DNA of 64,000 bases. Source: Saprospiraceae bacterium (GTDB lineage: Bacteria > Bacteroidota > Bacteroidia > Chitinophagales > Saprospiraceae). Numbering within the stretch: the first letter of the stretch is position 1; each line of letters opens with the position of its first letter. The stretch lies in contig CBFHTK010000004.1 in NCBI GenBank assembly GCA_965658745.1, positions 55,960 to 119,959 of the forward strand, given 5' to 3'. Shown here piece after piece: positions 11,839-39,987 of the stretch. A program made the translations under genes and the position numbers. The notes under the pieces were generated by a model. That model worked only from the letters and a program-made list of their open reading frames with translations. It had not been told where the DNA came from and searched no databases.

Positions 11839-14085
11839 ATGAGCAAGAAACTACATACTCTAGTAACCATTTTTATCTGTTTGATCGGGTTTTCGTCCAT
11901 TCAAGCTCAAGATTTGTTTGCAAAAGCAAATAAGCAATTTGAACTTGGAGCATATGATCTAGCAATCAATAATTATCAGCAGTTACTAAAAGAAGATCCG
12001 GCTAACGTATCAGCTATCGGCAGTCTTGCAGAAGCATATTTTCGAACTCAAAATTATATGGAAGCTATTAGCTTATATGAGGAGTTGGCAGGTTATGAAG
12101 CGATGGAGCCAAGACATATCTTAAACTATGCACATGTTATGAAATCATTGGGCTTGTATGACAAAGCTAAGATTTGGTATTTGAAGTACGGCGATTTCAA
12201 TGCGTCAGTAGCAGAACACTACGCAATGTCTTGTGATCAAGCAACAACATACTTACAGCAGCCCGATAAATACGATGTTACACTTTTTGATGGTAATACT
12301 AGCACATCAGATTTTGGAGTTAGTTTTTACGGAGATAAACTTATATTCTGCTCATTTCGAAGCGACATGAAACGCGAGACGCGTGGAACGACATTTACTC
12401 AAACTCCAAATAAGGGCAATCGACTATTCACTTGCCCTAGCAAAATAAACGGAAGTTTCATGAATATGGACTTTTTGAGATCTGAACTGAAGGATAGCTA
12501 TAATATTGGACCTTTAAGTTACGATGGTGGGAAAGTAGTTTATACAAGAAATAATTTTGCAGATGGATTTAAGCAAGTTAGCGGTAATGAGAAAGACCTC
12601 AATATTTTTCTTGGAGAAGTAACAGATACAAACGGAGACTTTAAGGAGGAAACTGCATTTATACACAATGAAAGCGGTAGCTCGGCAGCCTTTGCTACTT
12701 TTCTTAACGAAGGGAGTTCAATAATATTTGCAAGTAATAGAATTGGTGGAAACGGAAAATTCGACCTATATATTTCCCACAAAGAGCGGGGTACATGGAG
12801 TTACCCTGAAAATTTAGGCGATATAATTAATTCCCCAGGAAATGAAATAACGCCTTTTGTACAGGGAAATAAATTATACTTTTCGTCTGATTATCATATG
12901 GGAATAGGTGGATACGATGTTTTTGAGGTATCTATCTATGAAGATGGTACATTTGGATCTGTTACAAACTTAGGTAAGGGAGTGAATTCGCCAATGGATG
13001 ATTATTACTATGTTGTTGATGCATTGAGTGATCTCGCTTATTTTTCATCCAATAGATTAGGTGGAAAAGGAAGTGAAGATATCTACATCGCAAGCAACTT
13101 AGAGCCCGCAAGCCTTGCTATTGAAAAACTTGTTCCATTGTCAGTTGATCTAGACAATTTAGTAGCAAAAAATAGTAGTTTGGAAGGAAAAGGTATGTCA
13201 TCAACTGTATCATTTGTAGATAGAGCCGTAAAGGTATCTGATAAAAATACGGCACAGACAAAAGTAGATGCGACTGCTGTTATCACAGAATACGTAGTAT
13301 TTGAGGAATCAACTCAAATTGAAAGTTTAGCTTCAGATGAACACAAGAAAGATCAGACCTTGAAGAGTCCAGCGGACATCTCCACAACTTTAGCGGGTAG
13401 CAATGATATTGCTGAGAAAACTGCTAAGGAAGTAGAGACTCCATCTCATACTGCCTCCGTCATTGTTTTTGGGACAGATAACATGTTTGATCTAAAGGGA
13501 GCGACTAAGATTGCTCATAATGATATTATTACAACGGCAAGTCATGTCTACTTTATACAATTGGCTTCTCTGTCAAATTCAAGAGGGGACATTAGACCAT
13601 TTTTGAAATTAAGTGAATTAGGTAATCTCTATAAGGTACGTAAAGGAGGTACAATTAAGATTAGAATGGGTTACTACTTTGATGAGGCCGAAGCAATGCA
13701 AAAACTGGCAGAAGTTAAGAATAGAGGTTTTAGAGACGCATTTGTTGTTTATGAACCACTAATTACCTCGCAATTGGAGTTGGTAAATGTTGCAAGTACT
13801 CAAATGTATTATGAAGGTGATTATATCCCTAAAGGCACTGTTTCAAATTATAAAATTAGACTTGCGTCATATACTGATCCACTCTGGTTTGACACAGGCA
13901 GTGTAAAGGATATTGGAGAAATTGAACAGTGGACCAAAGGAGATTTTACCATCTTTGTTTTGAGTGGGTATACCTCAATTCAAGAAGCGGAAAAAGCATT
14001 GATAAAGGCTCTAAATAGAGGTTATTCTGAGGCTCATATTGTCGAAGATATCAATGGGTATTTGAAGCGCGTGCAGCGAAACTAG
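11839..14085 (+). CDS. Exported TPR / PD40 (TolB-like beta-propeller) protein with two C-terminal SPOR-like domains
   Basis: 748 aa. It has a signal peptide, N-terminal TPR repeats, then repeated PD40-like blades (NSPGNEITPF, GVNSPMDDYY, YFSSNRLGGKGSEDIY). A low-complexity linker follows, then two units of about 75 aa resembling SPOR (VYFIQLASLS...GFRDAFVV and YKIRLASYT...GYSEAHIV). Confidence 0.6.
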   Translation: MSKKLHTLVTIFICLIGFSSIQAQDLFAKANKQFELGAYDLAINNYQQLLKEDPANVSAIGSLAEAYFRTQNYMEAISLYEELAGYEAMEPRHILNYAHVMKSLGLYDKAKIWYLKYGDFNASVAEHYAMSCDQATTYLQQPDKYDVTLFDGNTSTSDFGVSFYGDKLIFCSFRSDMKRETRGTTFTQTPNKGNRLFTCPSKINGSFMNMDFLRSELKDSYNIGPLSYDGGKVVYTRNNFADGFKQVSGNEKDLNIFLGEVTDTNGDFKEETAFIHNESGSSAAFATFLNEGSSIIFASNRIGGNGKFDLYISHKERGTWSYPENLGDIINSPGNEITPFVQGNKLYFSSDYHMGIGGYDVFEVSIYEDGTFGSVTNLGKGVNSPMDDYYYVVDALSDLAYFSSNRLGGKGSEDIYIASNLEPASLAIEKLVPLSVDLDNLVAKNSSLEGKGMSSTVSFVDRAVKVSDKNTAQTKVDATAVITEYVVFEESTQIESLASDEHKKDQTLKSPADISTTLAGSNDIAEKTAKEVETPSHTASVIVFGTDNMFDLKGATKIAHNDIITTASHVYFIQLASLSNSRGDIRPFLKLSELGNLYKVRKGGTIKIRMGYYFDEAEAMQKLAEVKNRGFRDAFVVYEPLITSQLELVNVASTQMYYEGDYIPKGTVSNYKIRLASYTDPLWFDTGSVKDIGEIEQWTKGDFTIFVLSGYTSIQEAEKALIKALNRGYSEAHIVEDINGYLKRVQRN

Positions 14086-14110
14086 AAATAAAGAGATTTA
14101 TATTTATCAA

Positions 14111-14141
14111 AAGGCTATTCATAAAGAGTAGCCTTTTTTTA
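14111..14141 (+). terminator. Rho-independent terminator of the TPR/PD40/SPOR gene
   Basis: AAGGCTA (14111-14117) pairs with TAGCCTT (14129-14135), and the stem is extendable inward. A T-run through 14140 follows. It starts 26 nt after the stop. Confidence 0.7.
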
Positions 14142-14290
14142 TTGCTAGTTGTTGATTTGTATTAGCAGGAAATCTTAAGTTAGAACTTATCATGCCCTAT
14201 ACTCATTTAGTAGCTAAGTTTATTTGTTACACAGATGTTTCTAATGATTACATATATTCGCGCGTCTTTACATAAACTCTATGTAAAGAC

Positions 14291-14704
14291 TTGCGTTACA
14301 GAAGAAATAAAATTAGAGTGTTTAAGTACTTTCGAGAAAACTATAGAAAAATGATTCCCTTCGCACTGGTTGGAGGTATATTCAATCTGATTGAACTTGG
14401 TGGAACATGGTTTTTTGTGAAGTATTATGAATTTCCTGTGCAGTTAACATATACTACCTGCTTCATCATTGCTACCCTAGTAGCTTATACACTTAACACT
14501 TTCATTACTTTTCGCAGCAGATTCAATTTTCTCAATTTCTTAATGTACTTTTCTATTTATATGGGTGCACTGTTGATAGGGAAAATCGTAATTGCCGTAC
14601 TAGAAAACAATACTGGCATTGGGCACGAACTACTGCCATTCATAGCCGCTCCATTCGTGTACATTTGGAATTTTTTCTTGACCAACAAGTATCTACAGCG
14701 TTAG
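14291..14704 (+). CDS. GtrA-family small membrane protein
   Basis: 137 aa from a TTG start, or 117 aa from the ATG at 14351, which I think more likely. It has four TM helices and a GtrA-like start (IPFALVGGIFNLIELGGTWFFV). No glycosyltransferase is adjacent. Confidence 0.55.
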   Translation: MRYRRNKIRVFKYFRENYRKMIPFALVGGIFNLIELGGTWFFVKYYEFPVQLTYTTCFIIATLVAYTLNTFITFRSRFNFLNFLMYFSIYMGALLIGKIVIAVLENNTGIGHELLPFIAAPFVYIWNFFLTNKYLQR

Positions 14705-15002
14705 TCAACTAGCTAGTTTTAAGTTTTAAAATGGTTTAATTGGCTGATAGAATATCATTCTGACGATTCAAACTTTACCTTCTAAATATTTCTTGTCAAA
14801 AAAAGCCTAGTAGGCTAGAATTCTTAGATTCTAATAATCAGTTGCCTACACATTATCAATTTGTCTTATTTGTAATACATTACAATAATACTTAATATCA
14901 AAAACTTTTTGGATACATAATTGGAACAGTAGTACCGAATGAAAGAAATAATTGTAATCAAACACATGAAGTTACTTTCTCATATATCCAAAAACTGTTT
15001 TT

Positions 15003-18000
15003 ATGAATTTACATAATACGTACTTTTCTTTGCTAAGATTTCTTGGCGGTAGGGTAGAAAGCGTTGTAAACCCAAGGCATATATTATTTCTTTTGCTTAT
15101 TGGAATTAGTTCTGTTAATATAGAAGCTCAAGTTGTTCTCGAGAGAACCGTAGAGTGTTCTTGTCTTGACAATGACGCACCAGAGGGTTTTTCCCAATTT
15201 GAAGAAGAACTCACCGTGACCAGTATGGAAGGTGAAACTTGGTATATTTCCTCGGTTAGTGGACTATTTCAGGTAGGAAGTCCAGTCCCTCCTGACGATC
15301 CTATTCCTTTTGTGTTAGGAGTCATGGGTGATACTATGAATGCTGTTGGTAACGGTATTTACGTATTAACTGGTGTGCTACAAGAGAATTTGGGATATTC
15401 AATTACATTGACTAATGGTATTGATACAGTTGAGTTAAGCAATATACTCTGTGAATATCCATCTAGCGATATAGATGGTGATAATGCAGTTTGCGATGGA
15501 GAAACTATAACTTATACAGCAGCAAATATCAATGGTGATTATGCATATGAATGGAATATTACGGGACAAGGAGTAATTATAGGCTCAAATGATGAGACTT
15601 CAGTTGTAGTCGACTGGAGCGAAAGTGGAGTAGGAGATGAAACTATATCCCTCAGAACTACTGGGCCTAATGGCTGCAGCAGCCTTGCTTTCTTGAATGT
15701 TGATTTTGAAGAGGATATTATTTTAGCCTGTAATAATTCAGTTAACATATCCGTATCAACGGATTGCATCCTTCAGTTAGCTCCGGATGACGTGCTTGAA
15801 GACATGCAATACAATAATGAGTCTTATATTTTGACTCTTACAGATCCTGAAACAGGAGAAGAGATACCACTAGGTTCACTTGCCAGCGATGTCCTATTTG
15901 ACACTTTAGAGTATTCTGTATTTCATATATGTGCTGGCAATAGCTGTTGGGGTAATGTTGTATTTGAGGATAAGTATACCCCACCTATATTTTGCTATAC
16001 TGATACAATCATTTGTACTGATGATGATAGCCCTGAGTTGCTTGGTTTCCCAGTACCTGAATCTTCTCTTGTAATATCAAACGGAAATCAAGAATATACG
16101 GTCGAAGATTTTGATCCTTGCGGAGATGCCATCTTAGTTTTTGAAGATAACGTAATAGACAATGGTTGTGCCACTGATTTCATTCAAATAGTTGAGCGTA
16201 ATTGGGTATTAACTGACTTTTCCGGCGGGACTTCAACTTGTACGCAAATAATCAACAAAACAAGAACTACAGTCGAAGATGTTGTGTTTCCAGGGGATTG
16301 GGACGGAGTAACGAACCCAGTACTTGATTGTGACGGTGATTACCCATTATTACCATCAGGCTACCCAGATCCTATTTATACTGGTTTTCCTACTGAAGGG
16401 GTATGCGATCATATGACAATAACTTACACTGATTTGGTAAGTGAAGTTTGCGGAGCTACTATAAAAGTAGTAAGAAAATGGACGGTATATGACGAATGTG
16501 CATCTCAGTTTTTGAAAAATAATCAGATCATAAAGATCGAAGACTCGGAAGCACCCGTTTTTGATTGCCCTGCCGATCAAACTTTTGAAATTACTGACGA
16601 GTCGGGCTGTGATGCAGCCGTGACTGTTTCGATTCCGGCAAATGTTGTGGATTGTTCCCAAGTAAGTTTTAGTGCGCAAATAGTTCAGATTGATAGCAGT
16701 GGAAATATCGCTGGTGCAATCACAGCTATGAATCTTGTAGGAAATGAATTCATTGCAGTTAATCGAGCAATTGGTTTACATCGAATTACCTATCTAGCAA
16801 TTGATGAATGTGGAAACGAAAGTACTTGTGACTTCACTGTAACAGTCGTAGACGGAGTTCCGCCAACTGCAGTTTGCGATTTATCCACAACAATTGCTTT
16901 AGACAATATGGGGAGTGCCTTAGTGCCTTATACAACATTTGATAACGGATCATTTGACAACTGCGAAATTGCTAAGATTGAAGTTAGTAGAGGTGACAAT
17001 GATTGTGGCTCGTATTCTGGATTCTCAGATCATATTACACTGTGCTGTGCTGATGCAAATACCGACGTTATGGTCACTTTGCGTGTCACTGACAAAACTG
17101 GTTTGGTTAATACTTGCATGGTCACAGTCACGGTGCAAGACAAAAAAATACCTACTATTAATTGTCCGTCATCTCAGACGATTTCTTGCACTGATGATTA
17201 CAATGATCTGTCCCAATTTGGTATTGCAACAGCATCAGATAATTGTACTTTTGATATTGTAGAAACTGTGGACTATCAGTTGAATGTTTGCGGAGTAGGT
17301 TCAATATATCGGACCTTTACTGCTATCGATGATGCTGGAAATGAGTCTAGTTGTACCCAGGTAATCAATGTGATTGATTACACTCCTTTTGATGAAGGAG
17401 ATATTATTTGGCCAGCGGATTATTCAACTACAGAGTGTATTAATCCTGAATTGAATCCAGATGATTTACCATTTATATATTCTTATCCACAACTCAATGT
17501 AAAGCCTTGTAGTAATGTAGTTTCAGATTACGATGATAAGATTTTTACTAACGCAAATGGAGCTTGCAAAACGATTTTTAGAACATGGACGGTTATCGAT
17601 CAATGCACAAGCAACGAATTTTCATTCTTACAGAAATTGTACGTCACAGATAATTCTTCTCCAGAATTTGAATCTTGTTCAAATAAGACTCTTGAGGGTC
17701 CATCAATAGGAGATTGTTCTTTTTTAATTACTTATGAGAAATTAGCGACTGATGAATGTACCGCACAAGAAAACCTTGTATACGAATATAGGATTGACAT
17801 CGACAATGATGGATCTCTAGATATCACTGGCTTCTCTAGCGTACTGGAGGAAGAATTGCCGTCTGGCTATCACAAAGTGAACTGGTATGTGATTGATGAG
17901 TGTAATAATGTTGAAGCTTGTCTCGAGTACATAACTATAGAAGACACAAAGAAACCTATTCCATATTGTATCGGTGGAATTTCAACGGTGATTATGCCTC

Positions 18001-19493
18001 AAGGTGGATTTATTGATGTTTGGGCAAATGATTTAGATCTTGCTAGCGAAGACAATTGTACAGACGCAGAAGATTTACATTTTAGTTTTAGTGCCGATAT
18101 AGACGAAACAAGCATCACGTTTACATGCGATAGTCTAGATGGAGCTTCTCAGAAGATATTCACATTGCCAATTTACGTTTTTGATGAAGCTGGCAATTTC
18201 GACTTTTGTACAGCAATGATTCGTATTACAGCAAATGCCGCTTGTGATACAACTAATACTGTAACATTCGACCTAGAAGGTAAAATCGGAACAGAAGATG
18301 AGTCTAGCATGAAAGAAGTAGAACTTGAACTAGTCAATACTAGCGATGCATCAACTATAACAACTAGTACCGATGAATCTGGCTTTTATTCTTTCGTTGA
18401 TCTACCTCAAGCAGTGAATTTTGAGTTGACTCCTACTTACAGCGATGAGGCAATAAATGGTATATCTACCTTAGATATTGTATTAATCCAAAAACATATT
18501 CTGGGACTTCAAACTTTTGATTCACCCTATAAGGTCATAGCAGCAGATGTTAATGGTTCTGAGAATGTTTCAGGAGCTGATATTGTTCAGTTAAGAAAGT
18601 TAATACTAGGTTACTATGATGAGTTTCCATCCAGTCCTAGTTGGAGGTTTGTTGCCTCGAGTCAGGTGTTTTTTGACAATCTAGCCCCTTGGCCACTCCA
18701 AGAATCTGTTGATTTTATTGCTTCAGAATCATTTAAGGTTGAGGACTTTGTAAGTGTAAAAATAGGTGATGTCAATTTGAGCAGAACTATGGACCTTACA
18801 GACGAAAAACCAATTGTTAGAAATAATCATTTCCTACACCTCAAGTATGAGGTTGTCAACGAGGCAATGGGTTCAAAAGTGCGTTTTATTTGTGAAGATG
18901 CGGTAGAGCTTTTGGGAATACAAATGGTCCTAGATACTGATACACCATTTTCTATCGAATCGGTACAAGCTAGGGCTCTAGAAGTTGATCATAATATGAT
19001 TAGGCAGAATGAGAACCTAGTGTCATTGTCCTATTCTATGCCTATGGCAAAGAGTATTGATGGACCTTTATTTGAATTCAATTTTGGGCATACGAGCCCA
19101 TCTACTATCACTTTAAATCAATCGAGCATGAAAGCTGAGGCTTACATTCAAACAGCTACGGGTATAGAGGTTTTTCAAGTTGACTTGCGTCAAAAAGAAA
19201 ATGCCACTCATGTGATTACCAACAAGCTTGAAGTATATCAGAATAAACCGAACCCATTTACAAATTATACTGAATTGCCTTTTGCAATAACAGAAAGTGA
19301 TTTAGTGACACTAGAAATAAGAGATGTTACTGGAGTTCTGATACTAACAAAAACATCGATGTTCCAAGAAGGTGAGAATAAAATTATAGTTCAATCATCG
19401 GATTTCACCAACCAAGTGAAAGATGGAATCTTGATTTATACAATTAGTAATTCAACTGAGCGAGTTTCTCGCAAAATGGTGAATATCAAGTAA
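15003..19493 (+). CDS. Giant T9SS-secreted multidomain surface protein, paralogue 1
   Basis: 1496 aa, very acidic and Cys-rich. A PKD-like N-terminal module (AVCDGETITYTA...YEWNITGQG) is followed by about 8 HYR-like modules. Those modules carry recurring blocks such as R(T/K/N)WT..D.CGN..(S/T)C.Q.I.V.D and FDNGSFDNC. Then come a carboxypeptidase-regulatory-like beta-sandwich, a dockerin-like module, a cohesin-like module and the tail NKPNPFTNYTELPF...KMVNIK. Confidence 0.85.
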   Translation: MNLHNTYFSLLRFLGGRVESVVNPRHILFLLLIGISSVNIEAQVVLERTVECSCLDNDAPEGFSQFEEELTVTSMEGETWYISSVSGLFQVGSPVPPDDPIPFVLGVMGDTMNAVGNGIYVLTGVLQENLGYSITLTNGIDTVELSNILCEYPSSDIDGDNAVCDGETITYTAANINGDYAYEWNITGQGVIIGSNDETSVVVDWSESGVGDETISLRTTGPNGCSSLAFLNVDFEEDIILACNNSVNISVSTDCILQLAPDDVLEDMQYNNESYILTLTDPETGEEIPLGSLASDVLFDTLEYSVFHICAGNSCWGNVVFEDKYTPPIFCYTDTIICTDDDSPELLGFPVPESSLVISNGNQEYTVEDFDPCGDAILVFEDNVIDNGCATDFIQIVERNWVLTDFSGGTSTCTQIINKTRTTVEDVVFPGDWDGVTNPVLDCDGDYPLLPSGYPDPIYTGFPTEGVCDHMTITYTDLVSEVCGATIKVVRKWTVYDECASQFLKNNQIIKIEDSEAPVFDCPADQTFEITDESGCDAAVTVSIPANVVDCSQVSFSAQIVQIDSSGNIAGAITAMNLVGNEFIAVNRAIGLHRITYLAIDECGNESTCDFTVTVVDGVPPTAVCDLSTTIALDNMGSALVPYTTFDNGSFDNCEIAKIEVSRGDNDCGSYSGFSDHITLCCADANTDVMVTLRVTDKTGLVNTCMVTVTVQDKKIPTINCPSSQTISCTDDYNDLSQFGIATASDNCTFDIVETVDYQLNVCGVGSIYRTFTAIDDAGNESSCTQVINVIDYTPFDEGDIIWPADYSTTECINPELNPDDLPFIYSYPQLNVKPCSNVVSDYDDKIFTNANGACKTIFRTWTVIDQCTSNEFSFLQKLYVTDNSSPEFESCSNKTLEGPSIGDCSFLITYEKLATDECTAQENLVYEYRIDIDNDGSLDITGFSSVLEEELPSGYHKVNWYVIDECNNVEACLEYITIEDTKKPIPYCIGGISTVIMPQGGFIDVWANDLDLASEDNCTDAEDLHFSFSADIDETSITFTCDSLDGASQKIFTLPIYVFDEAGNFDFCTAMIRITANAACDTTNTVTFDLEGKIGTEDESSMKEVELELVNTSDASTITTSTDESGFYSFVDLPQAVNFELTPTYSDEAINGISTLDIVLIQKHILGLQTFDSPYKVIAADVNGSENVSGADIVQLRKLILGYYDEFPSSPSWRFVASSQVFFDNLAPWPLQESVDFIASESFKVEDFVSVKIGDVNLSRTMDLTDEKPIVRNNHFLHLKYEVVNEAMGSKVRFICEDAVELLGIQMVLDTDTPFSIESVQARALEVDHNMIRQNENLVSLSYSMPMAKSIDGPLFEFNFGHTSPSTITLNQSSMKAEAYIQTATGIEVFQVDLRQKENATHVITNKLEVYQNKPNPFTNYTELPFAITESDLVTLEIRDVTGVLILTKTSMFQEGENKIIVQSSDFTNQVKDGILIYTISNSTERVSRKMVNIK
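18444..18611 (+). other. Dockerin-like module in paralogue 1
   Basis: The sequence is DEAINGISTLDIVLIQKHILGLQTFDSPYKVIAADVNGSENVSGADIVQLRKLILG. It has two loop-helix segments. The second loop, DVNGSENVSGAD, fits the D-x-N-x-(D/S)...D calcium-loop spacing. The first loop is degenerate. Confidence 0.55.
18813..19190 (+). other. Cohesin-like beta-sandwich module in paralogue 1 (tentative)
   Basis: About 125 aa, running ...GSKVRFICEDAVELLGIQMVLDTD..FSIESV...VSLSYS...DGPLFEFNF... The pattern of alternating beta-strands resembles cohesin. It is colinear with the clearer module in paralogue 2. Confidence 0.35.
19227..19490 (+). other. T9SS (Por) C-terminal sorting domain of paralogue 1
   Basis: LEVYQNKPNPFTNYTELPFAITESDLVTLEIRDVTG...ILIYTISN...KMVNIK. 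This is the typical type-A CTD pattern of about 85 aa. Confidence 0.75.
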
Positions 19494-22400
19494 TGACCGA
19501 ATACCAAAAACTTATGAATAATATACAATATTTAAACTCAAGCCAGATGACGCGAAAGCGAAATCATTTGGTAGCGCATTTCCGTCAAAATTTGATGGTT
19601 CTAATGCTGGTTCTATTGACGCAAATAAGCTACGGACAAGTAGCTGTGGATTTAGCATTGCGCATATTTCCAACAGAATCTAATCCAGTAGTCCCAGGTG
19701 ATATAGCCTCTTTTACTATAGAGGTTCATAATCAGGGAACAATTGCTGCAAAGAACGTAAAGCTTGTCGACTACATACCTGAGGGCTTGGAATTTGTCAC
19801 TACTGGGAATGCCGGATGGTCTTCCATAGGTGACAAGGCTATTACTACAATTCAGGATGTAATTCAGCCAGGAAGCTATGAAGCAGTTGAAATTAACCTA
19901 AAAGTAAAAGGGTCGGCGACGCCCAAGAATATCTCAAATTATGCCGAGATTGTATTAACGCAAGACATAAATGGTGTTGATACGAGTAATGACGATATCG
20001 ATTCAACCCCAGACACAGACAATACCAATGATAAAGGAGCTCAAGCTTTCAGTTCCAATGACGATTATTTACAAGGAAATGGCATCTTAGACGAGGATGA
20101 CCATGATGTGGCATTACTCATTATTTGTACCCAAAACGTATGTAACGACGATGTAAATATTTCATTAAATGCTGCTTGTGATATTGAAATCCTTGCAGAT
20201 ATGATCGTGGAAAATCCTGCGTACCCCAATGGTGCCTACACTGTAATATTAGTAGACGAAAATGGTAATACTCTACCATCTAATATGGTAAATGGTAGCC
20301 ATGTGGGACAGACTTTTCAGGTGACAGCCTTCATTGAAGGTTGCGAGCCTAATAGCTGTTGGGGATTTGCTACGATTGAGGATAAATTGGCGATTGAACT
20401 GACTTGTTCCGTAGACACAGTAGATTGTGGTATGAGTGAACCGTTATCAGTTGGATTACCAATTCCTCAGAATGCCACTTATATCCAAATTGGCGATTTG
20501 TTTATTGTCGATGGAGTCAATGGATGTTCAGATATCGAACTTAGCTATGAAGATGAACAGGAGATGCTACCATGTCAGACAGGTTCTCCTTATGTCGTTA
20601 AGATCAATAGACTCTGGACGGCTATTGATGGAGTTGGTAATGAGGTAAGCTGCACTAGTGAAATCTATGTGCGTAAAGGCTATTTGTCAGATATTACTCC
20701 TCCACCCAATTATGATAACTTAGATATTCCTGCATTAATGTGTGGTGAATATCCACAATTGTCAAATGGGAATCCAGATCCGTCATTTACGGGTTTTCCA
20801 GAAGGCTTAGCTTGCCCAAATATCATTGCAGTATATGAAGATACAGAACTTGATGTAAATCCTTCTTGTACTGGAAGTTTTGACGTGCTTCGCGAATGGA
20901 CAATTATCGATTGGTGTACAGGTGATGACACCACGTTTACACAATTGATAAAGATCATGGATATTGTGGCTCCAACATGCAATGCACCATTACCATTTAG
21001 TGGCTCCTCTTATGCTGATTTATGCATAGGGTCAGTAGACGTTGTTCCACCGTTTTTGTCTGATAATTGCAGCTCAGTTACTTACGATATTGCATATAAA
21101 CCTTACGTGGATTTTGACGATAATTTTGATAATTTACTTACCGATAACATAATTAACTCAAATGGAGATTTTAGTATTGAGCATTTGGACGTAGGCAGAT
21201 ACAGAATAGCTTATTTTGCTGAGGATGCGTGCGGAAATACATCTCAATGCTTAGGTGAATTTTCTGTCGAAGATACACAGGACCCAACTCCAGTTTGTAT
21301 AGTTTCTACAAGCGTTACACTAGATGCATTTGGTTCAGCAACACTAGAGGCTGACTTTTTTGACGCGGGTAGTTTCGATAATTGTGAGATTGACAAAATT
21401 CAGGTTGCGCGAATGACTGATGATTGTAATGACGGAGGCGATCAGTTTAAGACATCTGTTAATTTCTGTTGTGCGGATGCAGGTCAAGAGGTAATGATTA
21501 GATTCCGTGTTTCTGACAAAGCTGGAAACAGTAACTTATGCATGGTTGGAGTAACGGTTATCGACGATATTGCTCCAACTATTATCTGTCCTGCGGATAT
21601 GACTTTCTCTTGTACTGAGTATGAAGAATTTTATGGACAAATCCCAGACAGTATCGCTGGTCAAGCTATCGCTTTTGGAAATTGTGATCCAGAGCTTACA
21701 TATTACGATACACAGGTATTTAATAATTGTGGAGTAGGAATTATTGTGAGACTGTGGTCAGCTGTCGATCCAGCCGGAAATGAGACAACTTGTAAGCAGT
21801 ACTTTGAAATCGAAAGTGATTTCCAATTTGATGTGAATATGATAGAGTGGCCTTCAGATACTTTGGTAAATCAATGCTTAAATGACTTTATTGACCCTGA
21901 CATAACGGGTGTTCCATTATTGCCAACAACTAGTTGTAGCGATTTCGATATCGATTACATCGATCATATCAAGCTTAATAATGGAGCAGGATGTGGTATT
22001 GTAGAACGAACTTTTACGATAACAGATTTGTGTGCGATAGACCCATTCAATAACACTTTTTCTTATGTGCAGGAAATAGAAGTCTTTGAGTTTGAAGATC
22101 CAGAGTTTTTCTGCGAAGATATTACGGTGAGTGCAGATGATGACACTTGTGAAGGGTTTGTAGATTATACAGCTATTGCAAGTGACAATTGTACGGCAGA
22201 AGAAGACATTAAGTATTCTTTTACTGTTGATTATTTTGATGACGGAACTATTGACGAGTCTAATCAAGGGAATAATCTCAATGGAGTTTATCCTACCGGA
22301 ATCCATAAAGCTGTCTTCAGAGCGGAAGATGAATGTGGAAATGATGAAACATGCACCGTTTTCTTTACAGTTCAAGATGAAAAACAGCCAACACCTTTGT

Positions 22401-23926
22401 GCTTGCCGATTTCAGTCAGTTTGGACGAAAATGGAGAAGTAGAAATATGGGCGAGTGATTTTAATTTGAATTCATTCGATAACTGTACTTCTGCAGAAGA
22501 TTTAGTCTACTCCTTTTCTCCTGATATTGATGATCAGATCAGAATTTTTGATTGTGATGATCTTGAGAATGGAATGAATGCCGTTATTTCAATCCAAATG
22601 CACGTTTGGGATGAGGGTGGTAATTACGATTTCTGCACTGTTATTTTAACAATAACAGACACGCAAGATTTCTGTCCAGATGTAGGGACATTTTCTGCTG
22701 ATATCAGTGGTGAAGTTATGACAACAAAAAATCTCAATGCATTTCCAGAGGTCGAGATGTTGATCGAGGGTAATAGTATGGAAATGAAAAATACTATGAG
22801 CGACGAATCAGGAGAGTATACATTTACAGATTTGAGTCTTTACGATAACTACACTATTAAGCCTTACAAGAATGATGATGCATTGAATGGTATCACAACT
22901 CTGGATATCGTGCGTATTCAGAAACATATTTTGGGACTAAATACATTTACAGAGAAAGAAGAAATCATTGCTGCTGATGTTAACCACTCGGAGTCAATTA
23001 GTGGAGTCGACATCATCCAACTTAGAAAATTAATTCTAGGAGTTTATGCTGATGAGAAGTTACCTCAAAATGACTCATGGAGATTCATGCCTACAGATTT
23101 TGAATGGAATCCAGTTTTTCCTTACGAATTTCCTGAGGAAATGGTTGTTGATAATTTACTCGAATCGTATGATGATGCCTCGTTTTATGGCATTAAAATC
23201 GGCGATGTTAATAGCTCCGCGAGTGTTAATGCACAAAGTTCTGTTCAGACTAGATCGACACCAAGACGTATATTTATGGATGAAGGTAGATTTGAGCAAG
23301 GTGACTGCATCTCAGTTCCTGTGTATGCTGATTTTTCACAGAATCTTGAAGGACTGCAGCTTGGAATTAGGTTTGATGAAGATATCATAGCAATTAAGTC
23401 AATTAGCAGCCCAATTCTGGATATTCGAGCTGATCACTACAACATTATGGATGGTGAAGTTTATATGTCTTGGGATAAAATTGGTGGACTTGAAGTCCAA
23501 AAAGGTGAAGTTATTTTTGTAATCGAAATAGATGCTCAAACTGCCGGCTCTTTATCTACTGCAGGATTTGAATTGATTGAGGATTTTAATTCTGAGCTAT
23601 TTGATAGTCAGCTTGAAGTTGGATCCATAGAGTTGTCATTGAGAAACGATGATCCGGTAATAAAGGCAACGCAACTGCTTCAAAATGAGCCCAATCCATT
23701 TGCTGAAATGACACAGGTAAGTTTTGATATGGAGCATAGTGACTTAGTATATATTTACTTGTACGATGCACAGGGAAAGATGTTAGTTCAGGAAGTACAA
23801 AAGTATGACAAAGGAACACATGTAATTCAATTTACTGGAGATCAATTTAGAAGTACAGGTTTGTTCTACTTGACTATGGAGTCGAGCAGCTGGTCCTCTA
23901 CAATCAAACTAGTGCGTATACAGTAA
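19493..23926 (+). CDS. Giant T9SS-secreted multidomain surface protein, paralogue 2
   Basis: 1477 aa. The ATG shares its A with the TAA stop of paralogue 1. The signal peptide may really start at Met19 (nt 19547: MTRKRNHLVAHFRQNLMVLMLVLLTQISYGQ). A DUF11-like N-terminal module (VDLALRI...PGDIASFTIEVHNQG...) with a DIDSTPDTDNTND...DEDDHD stretch comes first. After that the domain order is colinear with paralogue 1: HYR-like modules, beta-sandwich, dockerin-like, cohesin-like, T9SS tail. Confidence 0.85.
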   Translation: MTEYQKLMNNIQYLNSSQMTRKRNHLVAHFRQNLMVLMLVLLTQISYGQVAVDLALRIFPTESNPVVPGDIASFTIEVHNQGTIAAKNVKLVDYIPEGLEFVTTGNAGWSSIGDKAITTIQDVIQPGSYEAVEINLKVKGSATPKNISNYAEIVLTQDINGVDTSNDDIDSTPDTDNTNDKGAQAFSSNDDYLQGNGILDEDDHDVALLIICTQNVCNDDVNISLNAACDIEILADMIVENPAYPNGAYTVILVDENGNTLPSNMVNGSHVGQTFQVTAFIEGCEPNSCWGFATIEDKLAIELTCSVDTVDCGMSEPLSVGLPIPQNATYIQIGDLFIVDGVNGCSDIELSYEDEQEMLPCQTGSPYVVKINRLWTAIDGVGNEVSCTSEIYVRKGYLSDITPPPNYDNLDIPALMCGEYPQLSNGNPDPSFTGFPEGLACPNIIAVYEDTELDVNPSCTGSFDVLREWTIIDWCTGDDTTFTQLIKIMDIVAPTCNAPLPFSGSSYADLCIGSVDVVPPFLSDNCSSVTYDIAYKPYVDFDDNFDNLLTDNIINSNGDFSIEHLDVGRYRIAYFAEDACGNTSQCLGEFSVEDTQDPTPVCIVSTSVTLDAFGSATLEADFFDAGSFDNCEIDKIQVARMTDDCNDGGDQFKTSVNFCCADAGQEVMIRFRVSDKAGNSNLCMVGVTVIDDIAPTIICPADMTFSCTEYEEFYGQIPDSIAGQAIAFGNCDPELTYYDTQVFNNCGVGIIVRLWSAVDPAGNETTCKQYFEIESDFQFDVNMIEWPSDTLVNQCLNDFIDPDITGVPLLPTTSCSDFDIDYIDHIKLNNGAGCGIVERTFTITDLCAIDPFNNTFSYVQEIEVFEFEDPEFFCEDITVSADDDTCEGFVDYTAIASDNCTAEEDIKYSFTVDYFDDGTIDESNQGNNLNGVYPTGIHKAVFRAEDECGNDETCTVFFTVQDEKQPTPLCLPISVSLDENGEVEIWASDFNLNSFDNCTSAEDLVYSFSPDIDDQIRIFDCDDLENGMNAVISIQMHVWDEGGNYDFCTVILTITDTQDFCPDVGTFSADISGEVMTTKNLNAFPEVEMLIEGNSMEMKNTMSDESGEYTFTDLSLYDNYTIKPYKNDDALNGITTLDIVRIQKHILGLNTFTEKEEIIAADVNHSESISGVDIIQLRKLILGVYADEKLPQNDSWRFMPTDFEWNPVFPYEFPEEMVVDNLLESYDDASFYGIKIGDVNSSASVNAQSSVQTRSTPRRIFMDEGRFEQGDCISVPVYADFSQNLEGLQLGIRFDEDIIAIKSISSPILDIRADHYNIMDGEVYMSWDKIGGLEVQKGEVIFVIEIDAQTAGSLSTAGFELIEDFNSELFDSQLEVGSIELSLRNDDPVIKATQLLQNEPNPFAEMTQVSFDMEHSDLVYIYLYDAQGKMLVQEVQKYDKGTHVIQFTGDQFRSTGLFYLTMESSSWSSTIKLVRIQ
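22874..23041 (+). other. Dockerin-like module in paralogue 2
   Basis: The sequence is DDALNGITTLDIVRIQKHILGLNTFTEKEEIIAADVNHSESISGVDIIQLRKLILG. It has the same two-segment layout as paralogue 1, and the second loop DVNHSESISGVD fits the calcium-loop spacing. Confidence 0.55.
23270..23645 (+). other. Cohesin-like module in paralogue 2
   Basis: IFMDEGRFEQGDCISVPVYADFSQNLEGLQLGIRFDEDIIAIKSISSPILD...DGEVYMSWDKIGG..VQKGEVIFVIEIDAQTAGS... This has the G-x-x-hs-VPV start, the G-hQh-x-h-x-(F/Y)D block and the later G-x-hhF-x-h-x-h block that I associate with cohesins. Confidence 0.45.
23672..23923 (+). other. T9SS (Por) C-terminal sorting domain of paralogue 2
   Basis: QLLQNEPNPFAEMTQVSFDMEHSDLVYIYLYDAQGKML...GLFYLTMES...IKLVRIQ. 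Confidence 0.75.
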
Positions 23927-23994
23927 TTGATAGAAAAGAAAACCTAGGGGTGACAGAAAGCACTTGTTGGCTGTTAGAAAGAAAAGTTTTTGGT

Positions 23995-24030
23995 AAGGCA
24001 TGATCAACGTTGAGTTGGTTGTGCCTTTTT
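23995..24030 (+). terminator. Terminator hairpin after giant paralogue 2
   Basis: A 14 bp stem pairs 23995-24008 with 24014-24027, including 3 G-U pairs, around a 5 nt loop GTTGA. TTTTCGTTTTT follows. Confidence 0.6.
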
Positions 24031-24262
24031 CGTTTTTCTTTGATTTTAAATGCAGAGTCCTATTCGTATTGCGGGTAATTGCCATAGTCATCTTGACAGA
24101 CATAAATGTTGGTGTTTTTGCCAACAGCGGTGTAGTGGAAGCTAACTGTTTGTCAGTTGTGTGCGATAATGACTTTTTACCTCGAATTGCGAATAAACTA
24201 AACAAGCCTGCGTAGAACAAGGCGCTTCACTAATGGGTATGGGATATCTGGGTAAAAAGCAT

Positions 24263-24292
24263 AAAAAACTGCTCCGAAAGGAACAGCTTTTT
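24263..24292. terminator. Terminator hairpin after the DUF2853-like gene (A-run/T-run on both sides)
   Basis: CTGCTCC (24269-24275), a GAAA loop, then GGAACAG (24280-24286), with one internal mismatch. Read on the minus strand, T6 follows the hairpin. It lies 20 nt past the stop at 24307. Confidence 0.5.
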
Positions 24293-24306
24293 CTCTTTAG
24301 TAATTT

Positions 24307-24642
24307 CTAGAGTGATTTCACTCCGTAGTGATGCATCAACAATGCATAGACTACTGCACGCTTTTTGTTTCGTACACTCATGCCATATTTTTCACCAACT
24401 GACTTTATTGCAGCATCAATGTCAGCATCAGAATCTGTTACTGCTAATTTCTTCTTAACAAAGTTCTCGCGAATCCTTGCCAGCTCATCCTTATCGCCAT
24501 AAGCAACTAGAGATGCATCTTTATTGAACAAATTCGGCCCTAGATATTTTGCTGCAGCTTCAACTGTAGCGTTTGTTATTTTGCTGTCAATTCCTTTAGC
24601 TGTTTCAAGTAAACCAGGAATAGCATCATCAATTTTACCCAT
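24307..24642 (-). CDS. DUF2853-like small soluble protein
   Basis: 111 aa, all-helical in appearance (MGKIDDAIPGLLETAKG...RKRAVVYALLMHHYGV). It matches my recollection of DUF2853. A terminator hairpin follows it. Confidence 0.5.
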   Translation of the reverse strand: MGKIDDAIPGLLETAKGIDSKITNATVEAAAKYLGPNLFNKDASLVAYGDKDELARIRENFVKKKLAVTDSDADIDAAIKSVGEKYGMSVRNKKRAVVYALLMHHYGVKSL

Positions 24643-24709
24643 GGAAATACAATTTTAATGTTATTAATATAATATATTAAACTAATAATGAATATGGAAC
24701 ATATATATC

Positions 24710-25231
24710 TTAATTCATATTTGTTTTAACACTATTGCCCCGAATCCCTAGTTCTACGACTTCAAGATCTTTTATCAGGCCCTCTCCAACGGAAAAGCGA
24801 AGCATTGTTCTCACTTTGTGAAATCCGTGATGACCAATAGCTCCTGGATTCATGTGTAAGAAATTATATTTCTTGTCAAACATTACTTTGCAAATATGAG
24901 AGTGACCACAGATAAAGAGTTTTGGAGGATCTTTTTCAAATATCATCCTAACTCTCTTGTTGTATTTTCCCGGATATCCACCAATATGAGTCATTAAAAC
25001 ATCTACACCTTCAAAGTTAAATCTCTGATTAAGAGGATATTCCTGTTTTATGCGACCGTGATCTATATTGCCATAGACCGCTTTAACAGGTTTAATAGAT
25101 TCAAGGGTATGAATCACCTCTTCATTTCCAATATCACCCGCATGCCAAATCTCATCACACTCCTGAAGATGCGCAATAATCGATTCATCAAGATGACTAT
25201 GACTATCTGAGATTAATGCTATCCTTTTCAT
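24710..25231 (-). CDS. Metallophosphoesterase (YfcE/MJ0936 family)
   Basis: 173 aa. The calcineurin-fold metal motifs appear in order: ISDSHS, HAGDIGN, GNIDH, THIGG and CGHSH. Confidence 0.8.
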   Translation of the reverse strand: MKRIALISDSHSHLDESIIAHLQECDEIWHAGDIGNEEVIHTLESIKPVKAVYGNIDHGRIKQEYPLNQRFNFEGVDVLMTHIGGYPGKYNKRVRMIFEKDPPKLFICGHSHICKVMFDKKYNFLHMNPGAIGHHGFHKVRTMLRFSVGEGLIKDLEVVELGIRGNSVKTNMN

Positions 25232-26418: not shown

Positions 26419-26519
26419 AGTTTCTTATTTATTGCTTACAAATCAACATAATATATAGGAGAATACCCTTCTTTCTTTTAATAAAAATGACAATGTGATT
26501 TGGTTTAACTTAAACTACA

Positions 26520-39961: not shown

Positions 39962-39987
39962 AGTACATTTTTTTTTGTAAAGTAACA

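What the first reader, a model, noticed from the sequence alone, without database searches (positions are those of the whole stretch)
15003..23926. Tandem giant T9SS paralogues that each carry both a dockerin-like and a cohesin-like module: possible self- or cross-assembling surface scaffold
Two colinear proteins of 1,496 and 1,477 aa share the same back half. That half consists of HYR-like Cys-rich modules, a beta-sandwich, a dockerin-like two-segment module, a cohesin-like module of about 125 aa and a T9SS sorting tail.

The dockerin-like modules run from DEAINGISTLDIV to QLRKLILG at 18444-18611 and from DDALNGITTLDIV to QLRKLILG at 22874-23041.

The N-termini differ: paralogue 1 has a PKD-like module and paralogue 2 a DUF11-like module.

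In cellulosomes, the dockerin and its cognate cohesin sit on different polypeptides. Here both partners are in one chain, duplicated in tandem, and attached to the cell surface through T9SS. That suggests head-to-tail or reciprocal A-B pairing that could build fibres or a lattice.

Non-cellulosomal cohesin- and dockerin-like modules are known to be widespread. I am not aware that the function of this same-chain arrangement in T9SS cargo has been worked out. The nucleotide sequences of the two dockerin regions are clearly diverged, so this is not a recent duplication. Diverged specificities are therefore possible.
Basis: partly seen in the sequence, partly recalled or inferred. Interest (0 to 1): 0.7.

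Follow-up and report, generated by a model that had tools for sequence, protein, structure and literature searches.

The report
Giant surface proteins with dockerin–cohesin base
Two neighbouring genes of a Saprospiraceae bacterium encode giant secreted surface proteins whose base carries a real dockerin and a diverged cohesin; they belong to a very large family that, in related genomes, sits beside outer-membrane-anchored multi-cohesin proteins, pointing to an apparently undescribed cellulosome-style plug-and-socket system for building the cell surface.

Summary
Two colinear ORFs (15003-19493, 1,496 aa; 19493-23926, 1,477 aa) are old paralogues: 33% identical over about 1,280 aa, so they share about 85% of their length, not half.

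Each has the same layout:
- a variable N-terminal tip (PKD-like or DUF11);
- a Cys-rich HYR-like stalk and a beta-sandwich;
- a dockerin, which passes Pfam's cutoff when scanned alone;
- a conserved 60-aa extension that packs on the dockerin;
- a cohesin-like module, invisible to Pfam here but confirmed by family profile and fold;
- a T9SS type A tail.

The locus is not unusual. The cassette occurs in at least 9,358 protein clusters, almost all from Saprospiraceae or Lewinellaceae, commonly in tandem arrays. Same-chain cohesin plus dockerin with self-binding is already known (R. bromii Amy4). Diverged dockerin specificities are not supported: the dockerin is the most conserved module.

What is new lies outside the window. 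In about a quarter of related loci, the giants sit next to genes for multi-cohesin, SprB-repeat, type B CTD proteins and their PorP/SprF anchors. Some giants carry cohesin arrays at their tips.

The best reading is a T9SS-coupled cohesin-dockerin assembly network. Actual binding, and whether it occurs in cis or in trans, is untested.

The parts
15003..19493 (+). P1: giant T9SS type A cargo protein, 1,496 aa
   Evidence: ORF. Domain scans. Colinear orthologue in L001 at 92.7% nt identity.
15465..15686 (+). P1 variable tip: PKD_6 module (aa 155-228)
   Evidence: Pfam PF19408, 26.3 bits against a cutoff of 25. The first ~240 aa or so vary across family members.
15729..18257 (+). P1 conserved Cys-rich HYR-like stalk (aa 243-1085)
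   Evidence: HYR 31.7 bits. 48 of P1's 49 Cys lie outside the last 350 aa (the cassette). Dozens of invariant Cys across 31 homologues. No sequence match in the PDB.
18273..18431 (+). P1 CarboxypepD_reg/SdrD_B-like beta-sandwich (aa 1091-1143)
   Evidence: Sub-threshold Pfam hits of 17.6-23.9 bits. The position is conserved in the family profile.
18444..18611 (+). P1 dockerin (aa 1148-1203), two F-hand segments
   Evidence: Dockerin_1 25.7 bits when isolated, against a cutoff of 22.9. The family profile hits solved dockerins at E 9e-7 to 1e-3. AF2 predicts three helices at pLDDT 96-98.
18612..18797 (+). P1 dockerin extension ('X-like' linker; SWRF...KIGDVN motifs, aa 1204-1265)
   Evidence: W68, K107, G109 and D110 are invariant. 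13 of the top 100 DCA couplings are Doc-linker pairs, including rank 1. Its length is constant.
18813..19226 (+). P1 cohesin-like jelly-roll module (aa 1271-1408)
   Evidence: No Pfam hit on its own. Family profile against PDB cohesins gives E 1.3e-9. AF2 pLDDT 91.2, and the top Foldseek hits are cohesins.
19233..19490 (+). P1 T9SS type A C-terminal sorting domain
   Evidence: TIGR04183 26.1 bits against a cutoff of 23.
19493..23926 (+). P2: paralogous giant T9SS type A cargo protein, 1,477 aa (the true start may be M19 at 19547)
   Evidence: ORF. 33% identity to P1 over 1,283 aligned columns. The signal-peptide-like segment begins after M19 (read from the sequence; inference).
19661..19996 (+). 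P2 variable tip: DUF11 module (aa 57-168)
   Evidence: Pfam PF01345 46.3 bits; TIGR01451 38.4 bits.
20141..22687 (+). P2 conserved Cys-rich HYR-like stalk (aa 217-1065)
   Evidence: Aligned to the P1 stalk. HYR is sub-threshold at 18.7 bits. Cys positions conserved.
22703..22858 (+). P2 CarboxypepD_reg-like beta-sandwich (aa 1071-1122)
   Evidence: Sub-threshold at 22.6 bits.
22874..23041 (+). P2 dockerin (aa 1128-1183)
   Evidence: Dockerin_1 25.7 bits when isolated. 70% identical to the P1 dockerin.
23042..23227 (+). P2 dockerin extension (X-like linker)
   Evidence: Conserved motifs SWRF / KIGDVN.
23252..23662 (+). P2 cohesin-like module (aa 1254-1390)
   Evidence: Hit by the scaffoldin-type cohesin HMM at E 3e-6. 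It is a row of the family profile that hits PDB cohesins. Only 12% identical to the P1 module.
23663..23923 (+). P2 T9SS type A C-terminal sorting domain
   Evidence: TIGR04183 26.5 bits against a cutoff of 23.
23995..24027 (+). Terminator-like hairpin closing the two-gene unit
   Evidence: 14-bp stem followed by a T-run. This is a consensus match only.

Best explanation
P1 and P2 are two old paralogues of a very large family of giant cell-surface proteins specific to Saprospiraceae and Lewinellaceae. They are exported by Sec and then by the type IX secretion system through a type A C-terminal domain.

Each protein is a stalk with three parts:
- a variable N-terminal 'business end' (PKD-like in P1, DUF11 in P2);
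- a conserved, disulfide-rich HYR-like shaft;
- a geometrically fixed base made of a beta-sandwich, a dockerin stiffened by a conserved 60-aa extension, a type II-like cohesin and the sorting domain.

Inferred mechanism: the conserved dockerin plugs, calcium-dependently, into cohesins in trans. Candidate sockets are the cohesin at the base of sister giants, which would give chains or lateral links. In genomes that encode them, further sockets would be the N-terminal cohesin arrays of SprB-repeat proteins held in the outer membrane by type B CTD/PorP-SprF anchors, and small cohesin-plus-type-A-CTD proteins. The result would be a modular surface on which interchangeable adhesin tips are displayed.

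Because the dockerin is nearly invariant, the system would be promiscuous among paralogues rather than pair-specific.

Shown here: the domain identities, family size, gene neighbourhoods and module shuffling. Inferred: the binding itself, and that it occurs in trans.
For: Domain identities:
- Dockerin.
- Cohesin.
- Type A CTD.

Family size and taxonomy:
- 454 hits covering the whole cassette.
- At least 589 loci in reference genomes, almost all Saprospiraceae or Lewinellaceae.
- 9,358 clusters at E<=1e-30.

Architecture:
- The body is conserved from P1 aa 243 to the end, with a variable tip (P_proprotein, Big_13, PKD, DUF11 and others).

Scaffoldin-like context:
- Dockerin-less proteins with 2-4 Pfam cohesins (up to 111 bits), SprB repeats (up to 238 bits) and CHU_C/TIGR04131 type B CTD lie immediately downstream of giants.
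- In 10 of 10 cases tested they are followed by a PorP/SprF gene (158-198 bits).
- A PorP-like gene is present in 20 of 80 loci.
- Small cohesin-plus-type-A-CTD proteins also occur.

Module independence:
- 9 of 150 representatives have 2-5 N-terminal cohesins plus the C-terminal cassette.
- Others have duplicated Doc-X-Coh units, or Doc-X without a cohesin.

Potential binding determinants:
- The dockerin's second loop has canonical Ca ligands (D36, N38, S/D40, S/T44, D47).
- H19 and R52 are invariant and K53 nearly so.
- Conserved polar residues of the cohesin (Q161, T163, S197, E233, Y235) alternate along what I assign, by strand order, to strands 3, 6 and 8 of the canonical dockerin-binding sheet (the strand assignment is inference).
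- Scaffoldin-type cohesins share G, Q and W at the same columns.

Precedent: Amy4's cohesin binds its own dockerin (PMC4611034).
Against: - No binding was tested.
- DCA on 362 cassettes shows no Doc-Coh couplings in the top 100. Power is low because the recognition residues barely vary.
- The window holds no multi-cohesin, type B CTD or PorP gene, and neither does the 21 kb fetched from its close relative L001. For this organism the scaffoldin partner is therefore only assumed.
- Module spacing is almost invariant (sd 0.5-3.5 aa over 372 cassettes), and the AF2 pTM of 0.75 for the three-module cassette suggests a rigid supermodule. That is equally compatible with the dockerin sitting on its own cohesin in cis.
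- The cohesin-like modules of P1 and P2 score in the lowest 6-9% of the family and deviate at some consensus positions (T163, N186).
- The first dockerin loop is non-canonical at position 5.
Confidence: 0.5

Rival explanations
1. Intramolecular clasp or pedestal. The dockerin-plus-extension binds its own cohesin in cis, or simply packs rigidly against it. The cassette would then be a stiff, calcium-stabilised base that spaces the shaft from the membrane and presents the CTD to the T9SS, with no intermolecular assembly role.
For: - Fixed order and adjacency in 129 of 150 representatives.
- Nearly invariant spacing between modules across 372 cassettes of about 33% identity.
- pTM of 0.75 for a three-module chain.
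- The extension clearly packs on the dockerin, like an intramolecular clasp.
- The cassette always lies directly before the CTD.
Against: - No Doc-Coh or Doc-CTD coevolution signal.
- pLDDT dips to about 62 at both inter-module junctions.
- The modules also occur apart: Doc-X without a cohesin, cohesin arrays without a dockerin, and single cohesin-CTD proteins.
- Dockerin-less cohesin arrays encoded next door would have no ligand, because every dockerin found in these loci belongs to a giant.
Confidence: 0.3
2. Neither module does its textbook job. The dockerin-like segment is only a structural Ca-binding EF-hand pair. The cohesin-like jelly-roll acts as a carbohydrate-binding (CBM2-like) or generic Ig-like spacer, for example binding the cell's own LPS or glycans, or prey polysaccharide.
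For: - Foldseek also returns CBM2 (6qfs, 1exg) at E values and TM scores similar to those for cohesins.
- Conserved aromatic residues (W198, Y235) lie on the conserved face.
- TM scores to cohesins are only about 0.5.
- Many non-cellulosomal dockerin-like modules have no demonstrated partner (own knowledge).
Against: - Sequence profiles hit cohesins specifically: more than 25 cohesin entries and no CBM2, and Pfam Cohesin in homologues.
- The dockerin and cohesin co-occur systematically, and dockerin-less cohesin arrays are linked to them in the genome.
Confidence: 0.1
3. Pair-specific A-B lattice. P1 and P2 have diverged dockerin/cohesin specificities, so that P1-Doc binds P2-Coh and the reverse, building a heteropolymer from this tandem pair.
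For: - Tandem, probably co-transcribed genes.
- An old duplication.
- The cohesin modules are very different, at 12% identity.
Against: - The dockerins are 70% identical, and identical at the canonical recognition positions.
- The dockerin is the most conserved module across thousands of paralogues.
- The residues conserved in the cohesin are the same in both (G159, Q161, S197, F211, E233).
- Tandem arrays of 2-4 genes with the same conserved dockerin are the rule.
Confidence: 0.07

Closest known systems
Ruminococcus bromii Amy4 / amylosome (Ze et al. 2015, PMC4611034)
   Same: One secreted polypeptide carries both a cohesin and a dockerin. Its cohesin binds its own dockerin, and multimerisation is proposed. 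The same dockerin also binds cohesins of separate scaffoldins, including a cell-anchored one. The system is not cellulolytic.
   Different: Amy4 is from a Gram-positive Firmicute with sortase anchoring, is an enzyme (GH13), is a single case and has been shown experimentally. Here the setting is a Gram-negative Bacteroidota lineage with T9SS export. No catalytic domain is present, the cassette is fixed directly before a type A CTD, there are thousands of paralogues, and no binding data exist.
Cellulosomal adaptor/anchoring scaffoldins with type II cohesins and X-dockerins (A. cellulolyticus ScaA/ScaB/ScaC; C. thermocellum CipA-SdbA)
   Same: The best sequence matches of the cohesin profile are type II cohesins (3l8q, 3fnk, 4u3s), sharing the GYQ..D beta-3 motif. 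The dockerin is accompanied by an extra module that packs on it, as in X-Doc. Some family members combine N-terminal cohesin arrays with a C-terminal dockerin. Anchored multi-cohesin proteins are encoded nearby.
   Different: The extra module follows the dockerin and is about 60 aa, not an Ig-like X module that precedes it. There are no CAZyme cargo and no SLH or sortase anchors. Linkers are short and of constant length rather than long and variable. The two dockerin segments are asymmetric, so a dual binding mode is unlikely.
Non-cellulosomal cohesin/dockerin modules (Peer et al. 2009; A. fulgidus AF2375, PDB 2xdh; C. perfringens NagJ/NagH/NanJ toxin complex, PDB 2ozn, 2vo8)
   Same: Cohesin and dockerin homologues lie outside cellulose degradation, sometimes in one protein. 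These structures appear among the Foldseek and profile hits.
   Different: Those are isolated cases in Archaea or Firmicutes. I could not read Peer et al., so I do not know whether Saprospiraceae proteins were catalogued there.
SprB-type type B CTD adhesins anchored by PorP/SprF (F. johnsoniae SprB-SprF; P. gingivalis PG1035-PorP, PMC9143113; Aureispira GhpA-GhpB/C, bioRxiv 10.1101/2024.01.29.577165)
   Same: The neighbouring multi-cohesin proteins have SprB repeats, a type B CTD and a dedicated PorP/SprF gene directly downstream. Aureispira is itself a Saprospiraceae member with giant T9SS surface appendages.
   Different: No cohesin or dockerin is mentioned for SprB or GhpA. P1 and P2 themselves carry type A CTDs, not type B, and have no PorP neighbour.

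Membership tests
Dockerin (Pfam PF00404, type I dockerin repeat pair) | Family HMM score above the curated cutoff | tested here: met
   25.7 bits against 22.9 for the isolated region in both proteins. On the whole proteins the scores are 22.6 and 19.2, just below the cutoff.
Dockerin (Pfam PF00404, type I dockerin repeat pair) | Two tandem segments of about 22 residues, each a Ca-binding loop followed by a helix | tested here: met
   Segments at cassette 1-22 and 36-57. The AF2 helices are 10-20, 29-35 and 45-56, at pLDDT 96-98. The family profile aligns to solved dockerins.
Dockerin (Pfam PF00404, type I dockerin repeat pair) | Ca-coordinating D/N/S/T at loop positions 1, 3, 5, 9 and 12 in both loops | tested here: inconclusive
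   The second loop is canonical (D36, N38, S40, S44, D47). The first loop has I/L at position 5, and the Pfam match omits it (profile positions 10-57 only).
Dockerin (Pfam PF00404, type I dockerin repeat pair) | Calcium-dependent binding to a cohesin | not testable with these tools
   Needs ITC, pull-down or a multimer model.
Cohesin (Pfam PF00963) | Family HMM score above the curated cutoff on the protein itself | tested here: not met
   No hit on P1 or P2 modules even at E<=10. 11 of 31 full-length homologues do pass the E<=0.001 filter, with a best E of 1e-9.
Cohesin (Pfam PF00963) | Profile-level homology to experimentally defined cohesins | tested here: met
   The cohesin-only family profile, with P1 and P2 as rows, hits 3l8q at E 1.3e-9 and 4uyp_A at E 3.7e-6 (profile 9-133 to chain 2-134), plus more than 25 further cohesin entries. 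The scaffoldin-cohesin HMM hits P2 at E 3e-6, but not P1.
Cohesin (Pfam PF00963) | Nine-stranded jelly-roll fold | tested here: met
   AF2 pLDDT 91.2, pTM 0.81. Foldseek top hits are cohesins at probability 1.00, but TM is only 0.45-0.53, and CBM2 of the same superfamily also appears.
Cohesin (Pfam PF00963) | Binds a dockerin through the 8-3-6-5 sheet | not testable with these tools
   Conserved polar residues fall on what I assign to strands 3, 6 and 8. That is suggestive only.
T9SS type A cargo | C-terminal type A sorting domain (TIGR04183 / PF18962) above cutoff | tested here: met
   26.1 and 26.5 bits against 23 on the isolated tails. On the whole proteins the scores are below cutoff.
T9SS type A cargo | N-terminal Sec signal peptide | tested here: inconclusive
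   Hydrophobic segments ending in ...NIEAQ (P1) and ...ISYGQ (P2) were read from the sequence. No signal-peptide predictor was available.
T9SS type A cargo | T9SS machinery encoded in the genome | not testable with these tools
   The window holds only gldA/F/G and a PorE-like gene that is below cutoff. Core genes (SprA, PorU/V, GldKLMN) are not in the 64 kb.
Cellulosome / scaffoldin system | A scaffoldin with multiple cohesins, encoded in the same genome | tested here: inconclusive
   Present in 13 of 80 related loci as multi-cohesin genes, and confirmed by Pfam in the 6 tested. PorP-like genes are in 20 of 80 loci. Both are absent from this window and from the fetched part of its close relative L001.
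Cellulosome / scaffoldin system | Dockerin-bearing carbohydrate-active enzymes | tested here: not met
   No catalytic domain in P1, P2 or 29 homologues. Every dockerin found in 80 loci is in a giant of this family. It should therefore not be filed as a cellulosome.
Self-recognising cohesin-dockerin proteins (Amy4 type) | Cohesin and dockerin in one polypeptide | tested here: met
Self-recognising cohesin-dockerin proteins (Amy4 type) | The cohesin binds the dockerin of the same protein species | not testable with these tools
   No Doc-Coh coevolution was detected, but the power of that test is low.

The most novel reading that the evidence does not exclude
Saprospiraceae and Lewinellaceae possess a T9SS-coupled cohesin-dockerin surface-assembly system, an 'adhesosome'. 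SprB-like filaments, anchored in the outer membrane by type B CTD/PorP-SprF, carry N-terminal cohesin arrays. These arrays capture a near-universal dockerin at the base of thousands of interchangeable giant type A cargo adhesins. Each adhesin's own basal cohesin allows further chaining. This would be a Gram-negative, non-enzymatic counterpart of the cellulosome. It would also give a non-covalent route for retaining type A cargo on the cell, possibly on mobile gliding adhesins. P1 and P2 would be two cargo units of this system.
Probability: 0.35. Interest if true: 0.8.

Novelty: new variant of a known kind. Interest (0 to 1): 0.55.

Why it matters
Cohesin-dockerin pairing is the textbook plug-and-socket of Gram-positive cellulosomes. 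Bacteroidota are usually described as lacking it; PMC5831590 says so for Bacteroidetes genomes.

This work shows that one Bacteroidota lineage has expanded a dockerin-cohesin cassette into at least 9,358 protein clusters of giant T9SS cargo, and links it genomically to outer-membrane-anchored multi-cohesin proteins.

If binding is confirmed, three things would follow:
- an explanation of how very large type A cargo are held and organised on the surface of filamentous, gliding, often predatory or epiphytic Saprospiraceae;
- a link between the two T9SS anchoring routes, type A and type B;
- a new, apparently promiscuous Coh-Doc pair for surface display in Gram-negative bacteria.

For the two genes taken alone the result is more modest. 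They are ordinary, rather divergent members of that family.

Tried and rejected
1. Direct Pfam scan of the cohesin-like segments gave no hit. The assignment had to be reached through the family profile, homologues and fold.
2. Foldseek with the whole three-module model returned generic two-sandwich proteins and was uninformative. It was repeated with the isolated domain.
3. Mean-field DCA on 225 and then 362 cassettes, run to detect a Doc-Coh interface, found only intradomain and Doc-linker couplings. Other interdomain pairs at ranks 73-100 are at noise level.
4. A relation to the Aureispira grappling-hook protein GhpA was rejected: that paper mentions no cohesin or dockerin, and GhpA is described with PorP/PorE-homologue anchoring.
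5. A functional link to the PorE-like gene upstream of P1 is unsupported: only 3 of 79 other loci have such a neighbour.
6. phmmer of the stalk (P1 aa 1-1086) against the PDB gave no hits.
7. Peer et al. 2009 could not be retrieved by PubMed id or PMC id.
8. Literature searches for T9SS or Saprospiraceae together with cohesin or dockerin found no description of this system.
9. The 'diverged specificity' idea was rejected on conservation grounds.
10. The AF2 tool returns no coordinates or PAE, so cis packing could not be read from the model.
Full report
**1. Observation**

The two ORFs exist exactly as described: P1 at 15003..19493 (1,496 aa) and P2 at 19493..23926 (1,477 aa), both on the + strand. 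The P2 ATG overlaps the P1 stop by one base. A strong terminator-like hairpin follows at 23995-24027. P2's signal-peptide-like segment starts after Met19, so its real start may be 19547 (read from the sequence; inference).

BLASTP aligns P1 243-1496 with P2 217-1477 at 33% identity. The paralogues therefore share about 85% of their length, not just the back half.

Pfam and NCBIfam confirm the differing tips: PKD_6 in P1 and DUF11 in P2. They also show HYR signal in the stalk and a sub-threshold CarboxypepD_reg/SdrD_B-like beta-sandwich.

**2. Dockerin**

On the whole proteins, Dockerin_1 falls just below Pfam's cutoff (22.6 and 19.2 bits against 22.9). Scanned as an isolated region, both score 25.7 bits.

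A profile of 111 family cassettes hits solved dockerins at E 9e-7 to 1e-3. AF2 models the segment as three helices at pLDDT 96-98.

The second Ca loop is canonical (D36, N38, S40, S44, D47). The first loop has a hydrophobic residue at position 5 and lies outside the Pfam match.

**3. Cohesin-like module**

Homology to cohesins is nevertheless well supported by five results:
- About a quarter of the 120 closest cassette homologues carry precomputed PF00963 hits.
- 11 of 31 full-length relatives match it at E<=0.001 when scanned here (best E 1e-9).
- A cohesin-only profile that includes P1 and P2 hits type II cohesins (3l8q at E 1.3e-9) and ScaC cohesin 4uyp_A over its full length (E 3.7e-6). 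It also hits more than 25 other cohesin entries, including the non-cellulosomal A. fulgidus one. The invariant family motif GYQFTL..D aligns to the type II GYQVNIKYD strand.
- The AF2 model of P1's module alone (pLDDT 91.2, pTM 0.81) has cohesins as its best Foldseek matches, at probability 1.00 and TM 0.45-0.53. CBM2, from the same superfamily, appears at similar scores.
- An HMM built from bona fide neighbouring cohesins hits P2's module at E 3e-6, though not P1's.

Compared with the family, the P1 and P2 modules are simply divergent. They fall in the 6th-9th percentile of family scores for linker, cohesin and CTD alike.

**4. T9SS tail**

The isolated C-termini pass TIGR04183, at 26.1 and 26.5 bits against a cutoff of 23.

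**5. The pair is one instance of a very large family**

The whole Doc-X-Coh-CTD cassette recurs widely:
- 454 word-indexed hits;
- 9,358 clusters at 50% identity with E<=1e-30, in proteins of up to 5,918 aa.

Locus L001, from an uncultured Saprospiraceae MAG (isolate AK_MB52), is colinear with window 11694-29489 at 92.7% nucleotide identity and has the same tandem pair. The window therefore comes from a Saprospiraceae bacterium.

In the 80 loci fetched, 2-4 colinear cassette genes in tandem are common, and ORFs range from about 820 to 3,690 aa.

An alignment of 31 full-length members shows that everything from P1 residue 243 to the C-terminus is conserved, with dozens of invariant cysteines. 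The first ~240 residues or so vary. The tips seen in relatives include P_proprotein, Big_13, PKD variants, Big_3_4 and DUF11.

The proteins thus look like stalks with exchangeable tips. No catalytic domain was found.

**6. Anatomy of the cassette**

Conservation is very uneven across the modules:

| Module | P1/P2 identity | Mean information (bits) |
|---|---|---|
| Dockerin | 70% | 3.15 |
| Linker | 27% | 2.41 |
| Cohesin-like | 12% | 1.72 |
| CTD | 28% | 2.35 |

Residues invariant in the 111-sequence cassette alignment include dockerin H19 and R52, linker W68, K107, G109 and D110, and cohesin Q161; K53 is nearly invariant.

P1 and P2 are identical at the canonical dockerin recognition positions. 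The two dockerin segments differ from each other (T-L...Q-K-H against G-x...R-K-L in P1 and P2), which argues for a single binding mode.

Mean-field DCA on 362 non-redundant cassettes (Neff 352) gave a clean result. The top 72 couplings are all intradomain or dockerin-linker. Thirteen of the top 100, including rank 1 (A4-F62), join the dockerin to the linker. None joins the dockerin to the cohesin. The 60-aa 'linker' is therefore a structural extension of the dockerin, like a clasp or X module.

Spacing between the modules is almost invariant across 372 cassettes (sd 0.5-3.5 residues). AF2 gives pTM 0.75 for the three-module chain, although pLDDT dips to about 62 at both junctions. The cassette therefore behaves as a geometrically constrained supermodule. 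It is unlike cellulosomal beads joined by variable linkers.

**7. Context that changes the picture**

Module HMMs run on all ORFs of the 80 loci found 116 canonical cassettes. They also found dockerin-less proteins with 2-4 tandem cohesins in 13 loci, and small (about 267 aa) cohesin-plus-CTD proteins in 3 loci.

Pfam confirms the first group as Cohesin (up to 111 bits, four copies), SprB repeats (up to 238 bits) and CHU_C, with TIGR04131 type B CTD. It confirms the small ones as Cohesin plus a type A CTD.

The gene order is stereotyped: giant, then multi-cohesin protein, then a roughly 310-345-aa gene, often followed by another giant. All ten of those third genes tested are PorP/SprF family outer-membrane proteins, at 158-198 bits against a cutoff of 90.6. 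PorP-like proteins anchor type B CTD cargo (PMC9143113, abstract seen). A PorP-like gene lies within 10 kb of the cassette in 20 of 80 loci.

Among 150 family representatives:
- 129 have the canonical cassette;
- 9 add 2-5 scaffoldin-type cohesins at the N-terminal tip, the layout of an adaptor scaffoldin;
- several have duplicated Doc-X-Coh units, or Doc-X units with no cohesin.

Scaffoldin-type and cassette cohesins share the conserved G, Q and S-W columns. Every dockerin detected in these loci belongs to a giant.

The window itself has no multi-cohesin, type B CTD or PorP gene.

**8. Mechanism**

The best-supported reading is a T9SS-coupled cohesin-dockerin network. The near-invariant dockerin of the giants would plug into cohesins in trans. 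Those cohesins are on sister giants, on PorP-anchored SprB-like multi-cohesin proteins, and on small cohesin-CTD proteins. Giants with different tips would thereby be retained and arrayed on the cell surface.

The domain identities, family structure, synteny and module shuffling are shown. The binding is inferred.

The main rival is that Doc-X sits on its own cohesin, or merely packs rigidly with it, as a stiff pedestal before the CTD. The constant spacing and the pTM favour this rival. The modular independence, and the dockerin-less cohesin arrays that would otherwise have no ligand, argue against it as the whole story.

A CBM-like or purely structural reading is less likely, because the sequence profiles are cohesin-specific.

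**9. Comparison with what is known**

Same-chain cohesin plus dockerin is not new. Scaffoldins have it. R. bromii Amy4's cohesin binds its own dockerin and also shares that dockerin with a cell-anchored scaffoldin, and the authors cite further cases in R. flavefaciens and A. fulgidus.

The setting appears to be undescribed in the searchable literature. That setting is T9SS type A cargo, a fixed cassette before the CTD, expansion to thousands of paralogues in one Bacteroidota lineage, and genomic linkage to type B CTD/PorP-anchored multi-cohesin proteins. One paper states that Bacteroidetes genomes typically lack cohesins and dockerins. I could not read Peer et al. 2009, which may list some of these proteins.

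The system should not be filed as a cellulosome, because no dockerin-bearing enzymes were found.

**10. Verdict**

- As a locus it is an ordinary, divergent member of a large family.
- As a system it is a new variant of cohesin-dockerin assembly that deserves experimental testing.

Noticed in passing
L067:6866-18339; L080:1-8403; L002, L005, L009, L017, L020, L021, L030, L040, L057 (coordinates): A conserved gene module in relatives: a giant Doc-Coh-CTD(A) gene, then a Cohesin x2-4 + SprB repeats + type B CTD gene, then a PorP/SprF gene. In L053, L067 and L080 a cohesin-plus-type-A-CTD gene of about 267 aa lies in between. This module is not present in the window.
   Followed up: yes
Proteins P0134, P0149, P0164, P0186, P0204, P0250 (N-terminal cohesin arrays); P0121, P0127, P0135 (Doc-X units without a cohesin): Family members with 2-5 scaffoldin-type cohesins at the tip plus the C-terminal cassette. 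Others have up to four Doc-X units and only one cohesin. The modules are shuffled within the family.
   Followed up: partly
window 2895-6245 (+): A gldA-gldF-gldG gliding-motility ABC transporter operon. GldF scores 308.6 bits and GldG 494 bits, both above their cutoffs. GldA scores 401.3 bits against a cutoff of 402.6.
   Followed up: partly
window 11839-14085 (+): The gene upstream of P1 resembles PorE / the CHU_0125 family in its N-terminal part (TPR plus PD40 beta-propeller; 142-191 bits, far below the cutoffs). By eye it ends in two SPOR-like repeats instead of OmpA_C. Similar genes lie near giants in only 3 of 79 other loci.
   Followed up: partly
window 9986-11338 (-): Another T9SS type A cargo protein: GEVED domain, sub-threshold fn3, and Por_Secre_tail at 31 bits.
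   Followed up: no
window 14291-14704 (+): A small GtrA/DPMS-family membrane protein lies between the PorE-like gene and P1. An undecaprenyl-phosphate translocase-like gene lies at 8526-9509. Both may relate to surface glycan synthesis.
   Followed up: no
window 32849-35614 (+) and 38309-39988 (-): A TPR plus CHAT-domain protein (CHAT 140 bits) and a subtilisin-like S8 peptidase. Neither has an evident link to the finding.
   Followed up: no
L012 (JAHDEJ010000080.1, 3.9-kb contig): A cassette-bearing gene sits on a contig binned as an Acidimicrobiales MAG. Given the Saprospiraceae restriction of all other hits, this is probably a binning error.
   Followed up: no
window 19493-19547: The first ATG of P2 overlaps the P1 stop. 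The signal-peptide-like segment (MTRKRNH...LLTQISYGQ) begins at Met19, so the true start may be 19547, leaving a 53-nt gap.
   Followed up: no
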